This document shows positions 3,001 through 6,000 of a stretch of DNA of 27,357 nucleotides, in pieces (within the stretch, counting starts at the first letter, position 1; every line of letters starts with the position of its first letter). Where the stretch lies: assembly GCF_003334355.1 (NCBI RefSeq), contig NZ_QOWP01000042.1. One strand, 5' to 3'. Made by a program: the position numbers. This DNA comes from Escherichia coli. Lineage in GTDB: Bacteria > Pseudomonadota > Gammaproteobacteria > Enterobacterales > Enterobacteriaceae.

Positions 3001-6000
3001 GCGAATATCAATCTGTCGGTTATTCCCACGCTGACCACTGGTGGAGTTACCGGTCAGGTTAACGCCTGGCATGGTACGGATGATCTCCGACACATCGCGG
3101 GCAACCGGGTTTTTGCGGATTTCATCTGCGGTGATGGTCGAAACGCCAGGCGCCTGTAAGTTCTGCTCGGCGGCGGTAACGACAATAGTATCGTCATGTG
3201 AAACAGGAGTATCGGTCGGCTCTTGTGCCTGCGCTACCCCATAAATCCCCAGATTGACCAACAAGGCCAGGGAATGAATCTTCTTGTTCATTGTTTTATT
3301 CCTGCATTTTTGCCACGAATTGCAACTGTCGGGCATGGTCGTCATCAACACGACGCATCCCGCTACCGCGAAAACCTTTGATCCTGAAAGACACGCAGTG
3401 CAGTTGGTTAATTAATGTCCGCGCTTCCCACGGCGCGCCATTACGCTATTGCAAATGCAAATAGTTATCAATAATATTATCAATATATTTCTGCAATCAA
3501 TGAAAAATTGCACAGTAAACATGGGGTTATGGTGTGACGGCGTTAAAAGTAGGAAGTGAGAGCTGGTGGCAGTCGAAACATGGCCCGGAATGGCAGCGTC
3601 TGAATGACGAAATGTTTGAGGTCACTTTCTGGTGGCGTGATCCCCAAGGTTCTGAAGAATACTCGACGATAAAGCGCGTATGGGTCTACATCACTGGTGT
3701 GACCGATCACCATCAGAACAGCCAGCCCCAGTCGATGCAGCGAATTGCAGGCACTAACGTCTGGCAGTGGAAGACACAACTCAATGCCAACTGGCGCGGC
3801 AGCTACTGCTTTATTCCCACCGAACGCGATGACATTTTTTCTGTACCATCCCCCGATCGCCTCGAATTGCGCGAAGGCTGGCGAAAACTATTACCCCAGG
3901 CGATAGCCGATCCGCTGAACCTACAAAGCTGGAAAGGCGGGCGAGGGCACGCTGTTTCTGCACTCGAAATGCCGCAAGCGCCTCTGCAACCGGGATGGGA
4001 TTGTCCGCAAGCGCCAGAAATACCTGCCAAAGAAATTATCTGGAAAAGTGAACGGTTGAAAAAGTCACGGCGTGTATGGATTTTTACCACCGGCGATGCA
4101 ACAGCAGAAGAACGCCCGCTGGCAGTTTTGCTCGATGGCGAATTTTGGGCGCAAAGTATGCCCGTCTGGCCAGTGCTGACTTCGCTGACCCATCGTCAGC
4201 AACTTCCTCCCGCCGTGTATGTGTTGATCGACGCTATCGACACCACGCACCGCGCCCACGAACTGCCGTGTAATGCGGATTTCTGGCTCGCAGTACAGCA
4301 AGAGTTATTACCCCTGGTGAAAGCTATTGCCCCTTTTAGCGATCGTGCCGATCGCACCGTGGTTGCCGGGCAGAGTTTTGGTGGGCTTTCCGCGCTGTAT
4401 GCCGGACTGCACTGGCCTGAACGCTTTGGCTGTGTATTAAGCCAGTCAGGATCGTACTGGTGGCCGCATCGGGGCGGGCAGCAAGAGGGCGTGTTACTTG
4501 AAAAGCTAAAAGCTGGTGAAGTTAGCGCCGAAGGTCTGCGCATTGTGCTGGAAGCGGGTATTCGCGAGCCGATGATCATGCGGGCCAATCAGGCGCTGTA
4601 TGCGCAATTACACCCCATAAAAGAATCCATTTTCTGGCGTCAGGTTGACGGCGGACATGATGCGCTTTGTTGGCGCGGTGGCTTGATGCAGGGGCTAATC
4701 GACCTCTGGCAACCACTTTTCCATGACAGGAGTTGAATATGGCATTCAGTAATCCCTTCGATGATCCGCAGGGAGCGTTTTACATATTGCGCAATGCGCA
4801 GGGGCAATTCAGTCTGTGGCCGCAACAATGCGTCTTACCGGCAGGCTGGGACATTGTGTGTCAGCCGCAGTCACAGGCGTCCTGCCAGCAGTGGCTGGAA
4901 GCCCACTGGCGTACTCTGACACCGACGAATTTTACCCAGTTGCAGGAGGCACAATGAGCCAGCATTTACCTTTGGTCGCCGCACAGCCCGGCATCTGGAT
5001 GGCAGAAAAACTGTCAGAATTACCCTCCGCCTGGAGCGTGGCGCATTACGTTGAGTTAACCGGAGAGGTTGATTCGCCATTACTGGCCCGCGCGGTGGTT
5101 GCCGGACTAGCGCAAGCAGATACGCTGCGGATGCGTTTTACGGAAGATAACGGCGAAGTCTGGCAGTGGGTCGATGATGCGCTGACGTTCGAACTGCCAG
5201 AAATTATCGACCTGCGAACCAACATTGATCCGCACGGTACTGCGCAGGCATTAATGCAGGCCGATTTGCAGCAAGATCTGCGCGTCGATAGCGGTAAACC
5301 ACTGGTCTTTCATCAGCTCATTCAGGTGGCAGATAACCGCTGGTACTGGTATCAGCGTTATCACCATTTGCTGGTCGATGGCTTTAGTTTCCCGGCCATT
5401 ACCCGCCAGATCGCCAATATTTACTGCACATGGCTGCGTGGCGAACCAACGCCTGCTTCGCCGTTTACGCCTTTCGCTGATGTAGTGGAAGAGTACCAGC
5501 AATACCGCGAAAGCGAAGCCTGGCAGCGTGATGCGGCATTCTGGGCGGAACAGCGTCGTCAACTGCCACCGCCCGCGTCACTTTCTCCGGCACCTTTACC
5601 GGGGCGCAGCGCCTCGGCAGATATTCTGCGCCTGAAACTGGAATTTACCGACGGGGAATTCCGCCAGCTGGCTATGCAACTTTCAGGTGTGCAGCGTACC
5701 GATTTAGCCCTTGCGCTGGCGGCTTTGTGGCTGGGGCGATTGTGCAACCGCATGGACTACGCTGCCGGATTTATCTTTATGCGTCGACTGGGCTCGGCGG
5801 CGTTGACGGCTACCGGACCCGTGCTCAACGTTTTGCCGTTGGGTATTCATATTGCGGCGCAAGAAACGCTGCCGGAACTGGCAACCCGACTGGCGGCTCA
5901 ACTGAAAAAAATGCGTCGTCATCAACGTTACGATGCCGAACAAATTGTCCGTGACAGCGGGCGAGCGGCAGGTGATGAACCGCTGTTTGGTCCGGTACTC

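What the first reader, a model, noticed from the sequence alone, without database searches (positions are those of the whole stretch)
3521..3560. fes initiates at GTG (3534), overlapped by a 12-codon ATG mini-ORF in another frame
The fes reading frame has no ATG near its 5' end; the ORF track protein starts at a GTG (gtg acg gcg tta aaa...). An ATG at 3521 opens a 12-codon mini-ORF (MGLWCDGVKSRK) out of frame that overlaps the fes start. A non-ATG start with an overlapping uORF could modulate esterase translation.
Basis: seen in the sequence. Interest (0 to 1): 0.3.

Follow-up and report, generated by a model that had tools for sequence, protein, structure and literature searches.

The report
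fes GTG start; incidental overlapping mini-ORF
The enterobactin esterase gene fes of E. coli really does begin at a GTG codon, which is already the accepted annotation and is conserved across enteric bacteria, and the small overlapping ATG reading frame looks like a chance by-product of the ribosome-binding site.

Summary
Both observations are in the sequence. The fes frame opens after TAA 3516-3518, its only canonical start before Met27 (ATG 3612) is GTG 3534, and ATG 3521 opens MGLWCDGVKSRK* ending at 3559.

The GTG start is not new. RefSeq annotates fes from exactly 3534 (400 aa). The PDB entries use that form. A 2022 paper lists fes among 12 E. coli "gtGTG-starting" genes.

Comparison of 74 orthologous loci supports it. 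An in-frame GTG sits behind a conserved Shine-Dalgarno block (CAT[G/A][G/A]GGTTA) in 67 loci. Residues 7-22 are conserved with third-position wobble. Met27 is Met in only 3 of 74 loci and is absent in E. albertii.

The regulatory reading of the mini-ORF is not supported:
- Its ATG overlaps the Shine-Dalgarno sequence and has none of its own.
- The triplet is ATA, TTG or ACG in 20 of 74 loci.
- The frame is 2-5 codons long in most genera.
- 4 of 17 genes in this window have a comparable out-of-frame ATG.
- No conserved RNA structure or Rfam family was found.

It arose from an Escherichia-specific 1-nt shorter spacer. It could allow start-stop and re-initiation as shown for narQ, but this is untested for fes.

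Overall this is an ordinary, already known feature.

The parts
3442..3489 (.). [quoted passage not shown]
   Evidence: The footprint is 611868-611915 in NC_000913.2 (PMC2189734 Table 3). I converted it using Met27 ATG = 612038 = window 3612. The block is almost invariant across 42 enterobacterial loci.
3449..3477 (+). Inferred fes promoter: -35 TTGCAA (3449-3454), -10 TAATAT (3472-3477), transcript start near 3483-3484
   Evidence: This is inferred. The fepA promoter TTGCAG-14-TATTAT maps to 3496..3491 and 3476..3471 on the - strand, giving a fepA start near 3464. The fepA and fes starts are reported to be 19 bp apart (citing Pettis 1988). The primary papers were not available.
3500..3502 (+). 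Upstream ATG in the same frame as ATG 3521 (would give a 19-codon ORF); polymorphic
   Evidence: Sequence read. It is ATA in ATCC 25922, EE72d, E. whittamii and E. albertii. Nothing upstream pairs with the 16S tail.
3516..3518 (+). TAA stop in the fes frame that limits how far upstream fes could start
   Evidence: Translation of 3501-3620.
3521..3559 (+).
   Evidence: Translation. Lack of conservation. No Shine-Dalgarno sequence. Chance rate of similar ATGs.
3523..3527 (+). Shine-Dalgarno sequence GGGGU for fes (GAGGU in Enterobacter and others), inside the conserved block AAACAT[G/A][G/A]GGTTA
   Evidence: Duplex with the 16S 3' tail is -5.4 kcal/mol, 6 nt before GTG 3534. GGT is invariant in 42 aligned loci.
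3529..3537 (+). AUG-GUG-UGA (M-V-stop) in the third frame, overlapping the fes GUG; includes the GUGUGA motif at 3532-3537
   Evidence: Translation. fes is listed as a gtGTG-starting gene in PMC9841429 Table 3. The arrangement is confined to the Escherichia clade, which has a spacer 1 nt shorter.
3534..4736 (+). fes coding sequence, 400 aa, GTG start
   Evidence: RefSeq CDS coordinates. PDB 2b20/3c87 align to residues 1-400. Pfam Enterochelin_N and Esterase domains.
3612..3614 (+). ATG of Met27, the start of the older 374-aa annotation; not the real start
   Evidence: The distance of -149 from the Fur site at 611889 implies an fes start at 612038 in NC_000913.2. Met is present at this position in only 3 of 74 orthologous loci. 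E. albertii has AAA ACT here. The Shine-Dalgarno match is poor (-2.4 kcal/mol at spacing 11).

Best explanation
fes is translated from GUG 3534. A 30S subunit is positioned by the conserved Shine-Dalgarno sequence GGGGU (3523-3527), 6 nt upstream, on a short (about 50 nt), AU-rich and unstructured leader. That leader is transcribed from the Fur-repressed fes promoter. The GUG start and its Shine-Dalgarno sequence are ancestral in Enterobacteriaceae. The 12-codon ORF from AUG 3521 is a by-product: its AUG is the 'AUG' of the conserved CAUGGGGU ribosome-binding block, and it has no independent function. Shown here: the frame structure, the conservation, the Shine-Dalgarno complementarity and the annotation. 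Inferred: the transcript start position and actual ribosome usage.
For: **Annotation and structures**
- RefSeq places the fes start at window 3534 in every E. coli record examined.
- PDB Fes structures use the 400-aa form.

**Frame**
- TAA 3516 bounds the frame, and GTG 3534 is the only canonical start before Met27.

**Conservation in 74 orthologous loci**
- An in-frame GTG is the best-placed start in 67 loci, at aligned spacing 16 in 47 loci and 15 in Escherichia.
- Codons 7-22 have entropy 0.54/0.48/1.12 at codon positions 1/2/3, which means they are translated in the fes frame.
- G7, S8, W11, W12, Q13, G17, P18, W20 and R22 are invariant in an 11-protein alignment.
- Met27 is not conserved.

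**Shine-Dalgarno pairing**
- The duplex with the 16S tail is -5.4 kcal/mol for GTG 3534, against +0.4 for ATG 3521.

**Mini-ORF**
- Its ATG is ATA/TTG/ACG in 20 of 74 loci.
- Its length is 3 codons in 23 loci, 5 in 20 and 12 in only 5.
- 4 of 17 neighbouring genes have a similar out-of-frame ATG.

**No other regulatory element found**
- No Rfam hit.
- Folding z-score is 0.34.
- No consensus structure across 33 leaders.
- A fes'-'lacZ translational fusion is Fur-repressed and not regulated by CsrA.
Against: - No direct experimental mapping of the Fes N-terminus or of initiating ribosomes on fes was found. The N-terminomics supplement has no Fes peptide, and the Ribo-RET papers do not mention fes.
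- GGGGU is a non-canonical Shine-Dalgarno sequence with one G-U pair. PMC9841429 scored fes as having no Shine-Dalgarno sequence of at least 4 nt.
- The ATG at 3521 is present in 54 of 74 loci. This is more than a random triplet would be, although its position inside the ribosome-binding block explains that.
- The AU-rich leader could in principle support initiation without a Shine-Dalgarno sequence.
Confidence: 0.82

Rival explanations
1. Ambiguous initiation at the AUG-GUG-UGA / GUGUGA site. Some ribosomes positioned by the GGGGU start at GUG 3532 (or AUG 3529) in the -2 frame and meet UGA 3535 at once. They then either re-initiate at the overlapping GUG 3534 (termination-reinitiation helped by the adenine at CDS position 4) or are lost, so this overlap sets the Fes yield. 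This adds to the GUG 3534 start; it does not replace it.
For: - fes is one of 12 E. coli genes whose annotated start is the 3' GTG of a GTGTG (PMC9841429 Table 3).
- That paper shows dual initiation at GUGUG when the two codons sit at aligned spacing 12/14 or 14/16.
- It also shows that narQ, another GUGUGA site, depends on A4.
- With GGGGU as the Shine-Dalgarno sequence, the fes codons sit at 13/15, either side of the reported optimum of about 14.
- A4 is present (GTG ACG), and UGA 3535-3537 overlaps the start.
Against: - This was not tested for fes. The paper made no ambiguity call because no canonical Shine-Dalgarno sequence was found.
- The arrangement is confined to Escherichia and stems from a spacer 1 nt shorter. 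Most genera have a single GUG at spacing 16 and no out-of-frame competitor (10 of 74 loci have one).
- A4 is lost in E. whittamii, E. albertii and a divergent E. coli (GCG codon 2), where the -2 frame runs 4-5 codons. The start-stop is therefore not under visible selection.
Confidence: 0.25
2. The AUG 3521 mini-ORF (or its 19-codon form from AUG 3500) is translated. By occupying or unwinding the fes ribosome-binding site, it modulates Fes synthesis.
For: - The ORF exists and overlaps both the Shine-Dalgarno sequence and the start of fes.
- Both AUGs lie inside the inferred 50-nt leader.
- The leader is AU-rich and unstructured, which can allow initiation without a Shine-Dalgarno sequence.
- The ATG triplet is present in 54 of 74 loci.
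Against: - It has no Shine-Dalgarno complementarity.
- The AUG lies within the Shine-Dalgarno sequence used by fes, so the two uses exclude each other.
- ORF length and peptide are not conserved, and the ATG is lost in the sister species E. albertii and in Salmonella.
- ATG 3500 is polymorphic within E. coli.
- Comparable out-of-frame ATGs occur at 4 of 17 nearby genes.
Confidence: 0.05
3. The older annotation is right. Fes starts at Met27 (ATG 3612, 374 aa), and the upstream 26 codons are leader.
For: - This was the start in NC_000913.2, implied by the -149 distance in PMC2189734.
- The Pfam Enterochelin_N match begins at residue 29.
- The AlphaFold model has low confidence for residues 1-16.
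Against: - Residues 7-22 are strongly conserved, with third-position wobble.
- The Met is present in only 3 of 74 orthologous loci and absent in E. albertii.
- There is no usable Shine-Dalgarno sequence.
- Current RefSeq and PDB use the 400-aa form.
Confidence: 0.02

Closest known systems
Ordinary GUG-initiated E. coli genes with a Shine-Dalgarno sequence (for example fepB in the same window)
   Same: - In-frame GTG preceded by a purine-rich 16S-complementary motif at normal spacing.
- The start is annotated as such in RefSeq.
- GTG starts are a sizeable minority: 50 of 688 confirmed starts and 2 of 17 genes in this window.
   Different: The Shine-Dalgarno sequence is the non-canonical GGGGU in E. 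coli (GAGGU in Enterobacter). The GTG itself is unusually well conserved across genera (67 of 74 loci).
AUGUG/GUGUG ambiguous initiation sites and NUGA start-stop with termination-reinitiation (PMC9841429; the tested example is narQ, GUGUGA)
   Same: - fes is listed in that paper's Table 3.
- The motif GUGUGA is present, with A at CDS position 4.
- The 5' GUG is followed at once by UGA, which overlaps the annotated GUG.
   Different: - fes was not tested.
- It has no canonical Shine-Dalgarno sequence by the paper's definition.
- An additional in-frame AUG (3529) precedes the 5' GUG, giving M-V-stop.
- The motif is a recent, Escherichia-specific consequence of a 1-nt deletion, and A4 is not conserved within the genus.
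Out-of-frame start-stop sites found by Ribo-RET (Meydan et al., bioRxiv 10.1101/520783; yecJ, hslR)
   Same: A start codon followed directly by a stop, out of frame with the main gene. Such sites were shown to bind ribosomes and to lower host-gene output mildly (about 16% for yecJ).
   Different: Those sites lie inside genes and were detected experimentally. The fes site overlaps the primary start codon, and there are no profiling data for it.
Regulatory leader peptides and upstream ORFs (attenuation or translational-coupling leaders)
   Same: A short ORF in the 5' leader that overlaps the ribosome-binding site of the downstream gene.
   Different: - No ribosome-binding site of its own.
- No conserved length, peptide or regulatory codons.
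- No associated alternative RNA structures.

Membership tests
GUG-initiated protein-coding gene (fes, 400-aa form) | In-frame GTG with no other canonical start between the upstream in-frame stop and the conserved protein core | tested here: met
   TAA 3516-3518, GTG 3534, next start ATG 3612.
GUG-initiated protein-coding gene (fes, 400-aa form) | Shine-Dalgarno complementarity at functional spacing | tested here: met
   GGGGU 3523-3527 pairs at -5.4 kcal/mol with a 6-nt spacer (aligned spacing 15). The motif is conserved (GGT invariant) in 42 aligned loci.
GUG-initiated protein-coding gene (fes, 400-aa form) | Sequence downstream of the GTG evolves as coding sequence in that frame | tested here: met
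   Codon-position entropy for codons 7-22 is 0.54/0.48/1.12 over 69 distinct sequences. Residues 7-22 are largely invariant.
GUG-initiated protein-coding gene (fes, 400-aa form) | Experimentally determined N-terminus | not testable with these tools
   No Fes peptide in the N-terminomics supplement that was searched. The primary fes papers are not held.
Regulatory upstream/overlapping ORF (leader peptide) | Own ribosome-binding signal | tested here: not met
   The 20 nt upstream of ATG 3521 give +0.4 kcal/mol with the 16S tail. The ATG overlaps the fes Shine-Dalgarno sequence.
Regulatory upstream/overlapping ORF (leader peptide) | Conservation of the start codon, length or peptide among relatives | tested here: not met
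   ATG in 54 of 74 loci, ATA/TTG/ACG in 20. Lengths are 2-12 codons (plus three long outliers). The E. coli-like 12-codon form occurs in 5 loci.
Regulatory upstream/overlapping ORF (leader peptide) | Coupled alternative RNA structure or known RNA family | tested here: not met
   No Rfam match. Folding z-score 0.34. RNAalifold predicts 0 pairs over 33 leaders.
Regulatory upstream/overlapping ORF (leader peptide) | Evidence of translation | not testable with these tools
   No ribosome-profiling data for iron-starved cells were available.
GUGUG(A) ambiguous initiation / start-stop re-initiation site (PMC9841429) | Annotated start codon lies within a GTGTG | tested here: met
   GTGTG at 3532-3536. 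fes is listed in Table 3 of the paper.
GUGUG(A) ambiguous initiation / start-stop re-initiation site (PMC9841429) | Adenine at CDS position 4 creating an immediate UGA in the -2 frame | tested here: met
   GTG ACG, with UGA at 3535-3537. This is lost in E. whittamii, E. albertii and one divergent E. coli.
GUGUG(A) ambiguous initiation / start-stop re-initiation site (PMC9841429) | Shine-Dalgarno sequence places the 5' codon near the optimal aligned spacing (about 14), so that both codons compete | tested here: inconclusive
   The spacing is 13/15 if GGGGU is accepted as the Shine-Dalgarno sequence. The paper's criterion of at least 4 canonical nt finds none for fes.
GUGUG(A) ambiguous initiation / start-stop re-initiation site (PMC9841429) | Demonstrated initiation at both codons, or A4-dependent expression | not testable with these tools
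   Needs toeprinting or two-frame reporters on the native fes leader.

The most novel reading that the evidence does not exclude
In Escherichia, a 1-nt deletion in the spacer between the Shine-Dalgarno sequence and the start threw an ancestral in-frame AUG out of frame. This created AUG-GUG-UGA overlapping the fes GUG. A substantial share of ribosomes would then initiate in the wrong frame, terminate at once at the weak UGA-C stop, and re-initiate at GUG 3534. Fes output would become dependent on RF2 and on termination-reinitiation. That would be a second natural narQ-type site, sitting in an iron-starvation gene.
Probability: 0.12. Interest if true: 0.4.

Novelty: already known. Interest (0 to 1): 0.12.

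Why it matters
It matters little beyond annotation hygiene.

- The analysis confirms that the 400-aa, GTG-initiated Fes is correct and that the old 374-aa ATG start is not.
- It suggests that Citrobacter records, which annotate either an ATG or the GTG for the same locus, probably also use the conserved GTG.
- The one point worth a bench test is the GUGUGA / AUG-GUG-UGA overlap. fes would be a natural test case, inducible by iron starvation, for the published start-stop and re-initiation model.

Tried and rejected
- **Known RNA family in 3200-3700:** none found.
- **Stable or conserved leader structure hiding the Shine-Dalgarno sequence:** the minimum-energy fold pairs GGGUUAUG with CAUGGCCC, but the z-score is 0.34. 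RNAalifold finds no consensus pairs in 33 orthologous leaders. Rejected.
- **CsrA control of fes translation:** a published fes'-'lacZ fusion is not CsrA-regulated.
- **First idea that E. coli switched from an ancestral ATG start to GTG after a 1-nt deletion:** only half right. The deletion is real (spacer 6 nt against 7 nt). However, the GTG is conserved in genera that never had the ATG, and the Citrobacter ATG sits only 1 nt after the Shine-Dalgarno sequence (aligned spacing 10). The GTG is therefore ancestral.
- **Experimental data:**
  - Hunt 1994 and Escolar 1998 are not held.
  - The Weaver 2019 preprint has no supplement held.
  - The Meydan 2019 preprint does not mention fes.
  - The TRAINSPOTTER supplements contain no Fes peptide.
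  - A search for P13039 was uninformative.
- **AlphaFold model from the 11-sequence alignment:** low confidence (mean pLDDT 66, residues 1-16 below 50). It adds almost nothing beyond a predicted strand at residues 19-22.
- **Pfam Enterochelin_N:** the match begins at residue 29, so it does not settle the N-terminus.

Full report
**What is there.** The window is the E. coli enterobactin locus. It contains fepA on the minus strand (1051-3291) and fes (3534-4736), ybdZ and entF on the plus strand.

In the fes frame the codon at 3516-3518 is TAA. The next ATG/GTG/TTG is GTG 3534, and the next after that is ATG 3612, which is Met27. ATG 3521 opens MGLWCDGVKSRK*, ending at 3559, in another frame.

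- ATG 3500 is in frame with ATG 3521.
- In the third frame, ATG 3529 - GTG 3532 - TGA 3535 reads M-V-stop. The fes start therefore lies in a GUGUGA motif.

**The GTG start is the accepted one.**
- RefSeq records annotate a 1203-nt fes CDS starting exactly at window 3534.
- The solved Fes structures from Shigella (2b20, 3c87 and others) align to residues 1-400.
- An older annotation started at Met27. In PMC2189734 the Fur site at 611889 is given as -149 from fes. That puts the start at 612038, which maps to window 3612, because the Fur footprint 611868-611915 then falls on the Fur box at 3442-3489.
- PMC9841429 lists fes among the 12 E. coli genes whose annotated start is the 3' GTG of a GTGTG.

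**Comparative evidence.** I fetched 75 orthologous loci, one per species, across Enterobacteriaceae, and 74 of them could be used.
- The Fur box and promoter block is almost invariant.
- So is the block AAACAT[G/A][G/A]GGTTA, whose GGGGT/GAGGT is the Shine-Dalgarno sequence.
- An in-frame GTG is the best-placed start in 67 of 74 loci. The aligned spacing (DtoStart in the sense of PMC9841429) is 16 in 47 loci and 15 in Escherichia.
- Codons 7-22 show entropies of 0.54, 0.48 and 1.12 at codon positions 1, 2 and 3, so they are translated in the fes frame.
- G7, S8, W11, W12, Q13, G17, P18, W20 and R22 are invariant in an 11-protein alignment.
- The Met27 position is Met in only 3 of 74 loci. It reads AAA ACT in E. 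albertii.
- Pairing with the 16S tail is -5.4 kcal/mol for the region before GTG 3534, +0.4 before ATG 3521, none before ATG 3500, and -2.4 at an unsuitable spacing before ATG 3612.

**The mini-ORF.**
- The G of ATG 3521 is the first base of the Shine-Dalgarno sequence. A ribosome using that sequence cannot place this ATG in its P site, and the ATG has no Shine-Dalgarno sequence of its own.
- The triplet is ATG in 54 loci, ATA in 9 (E. albertii, Salmonella and others), TTG in 8 and ACG in 3.
- The ORF it opens is 3 codons long in 23 loci, 5 in 20 and 12 in only 5.
- Where the 12-codon form exists, its peptide changes along with the fes codons it overlaps, for example MGLWCGGVKRRK and MGLWCGGVKSGK.
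- ATG 3500 is ATA in a common E. coli variant.
- Across 5,415 E. coli genomes, 3,832 are identical over 3490-3570.
- In the same window, 4 of 17 genes have an out-of-frame ATG within 20 nt upstream whose ORF crosses the start.
- There is no Rfam family, no unusual stability (z = 0.34) and no conserved structure.

The regulatory reading of the mini-ORF is therefore not supported.

**Leader.** The fepA promoter TTGCAG-14-TATTAT maps to 3496..3491 and 3476..3471 on the minus strand. The fepA and fes transcript starts are reported to be 19 bp apart. This places the fes start near 3483-3484, downstream of a TTGCAA-17-TAATAT promoter, and gives a leader of about 50 nt. This position is inferred, because the primary papers were not available.

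**What is more interesting than the mini-ORF.** Escherichia has a spacer 1 nt shorter than its relatives: TTATGGTGTGACG against Citrobacter TTATGGCGGTGACG.
- In Citrobacter the ATG is in frame with fes but lies only 1 nt after the Shine-Dalgarno sequence (aligned spacing 10). Records annotate either the ATG (405 aa) or the GTG (403 aa) for the same locus.
- In Escherichia the deletion put that ATG out of frame and created GUGUG.
- With GGGGU as the Shine-Dalgarno sequence, the candidate codons sit at aligned spacings 10 (AUG 3529), 13 (GUG 3532) and 15 (GUG 3534), around the reported optimum of about 14.
- PMC9841429 shows that GUGUG sites at 12/14 and 14/16 initiate at both codons. It also shows that narQ, a GUGUGA site, needs the adenine at CDS position 4, which creates an immediate UGA, for termination and re-initiation.
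- fes has that adenine. However, it was not tested, and it has no canonical Shine-Dalgarno sequence by that paper's rule.
- The adenine is lost in E. whittamii, E. albertii and a divergent E. coli. Only 10 of 74 loci have any out-of-frame competitor.

I rate this a plausible but unproven add-on to the main explanation (about 0.25 that wrong-frame initiation is appreciable, and less that it is regulatory).

**Verdict.** The GTG start is correct, ancestral and already known. The ATG mini-ORF is best explained as an incidental consequence of the ribosome-binding sequence. They should also look at positions 3529 and 3532.

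Noticed in passing
window 3513-3529: The block AAACAT[G/A][G/A]GGTTA upstream of fes is conserved across many genera well beyond the 5-nt Shine-Dalgarno core, and the flanking AAACAT and TTA are nearly invariant. The reason for the extra conservation (extended ribosome contact, sRNA site or something else) is unknown.
   Followed up: partly
window 3296-3496, minus strand: Some RefSeq E. coli records annotate a 66-aa 'hypothetical protein' (WP_001174912.1) in the fepA-fes intergenic region. It lies across the fepA leader, the Fur box and both promoters. It is probably a spurious call.
   Followed up: no
L008, L011, L016 and other Citrobacter loci; proteins P0038 and P0033: Citrobacter fes is annotated inconsistently as 405 aa (ATG start) or 403 aa (GTG start) for the same sequence. 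The ATG lies only 1 nt after the Shine-Dalgarno sequence, so the conserved GTG is the likelier start.
   Followed up: partly
L073 (Citrobacter koseri NCTC10786), around 1501-1620: The fes reading frame breaks after about 10 codons (VTALTTGSETWVAVKTRSRMGA*). This suggests a frameshift, from either a pseudogene or an assembly error.
   Followed up: no
window 4954-4957: The annotated entF ATG (4954) overlaps the ybdZ stop (ends 4957) by 4 nt, an ATGA-type junction typical of translational coupling. The mechanical ORF list starts entF at an upstream GTG (4816) and fepA at GTG 3351 instead of the annotated ATG 3291.
   Followed up: no
window, downstream of about 22.7 kb, compared with L081: The window matches NZ_CP025859.1 exactly around fes but falls out of register further downstream (4,005 positional mismatches, and the last four gene starts are displaced). 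An indel therefore separates the two strains there. hcxA is annotated as frameshifted in that record.
   Followed up: no
fepA-fes intergenic region (literature): In a Klebsiella pneumoniae hospital outbreak, the fepA/fes intergenic region was the most frequently and independently mutated intergenic target. The mutations lay around the Fur box and derepressed both genes (bioRxiv 10.1101/2024.02.06.577356).
   Followed up: no
L079 (E. coli PSS-11), equivalent to window 3538: This strain has ACG to ATG at fes codon 2 (GTG ATG GCG), which creates an in-frame ATG directly after the GTG start.
   Followed up: no
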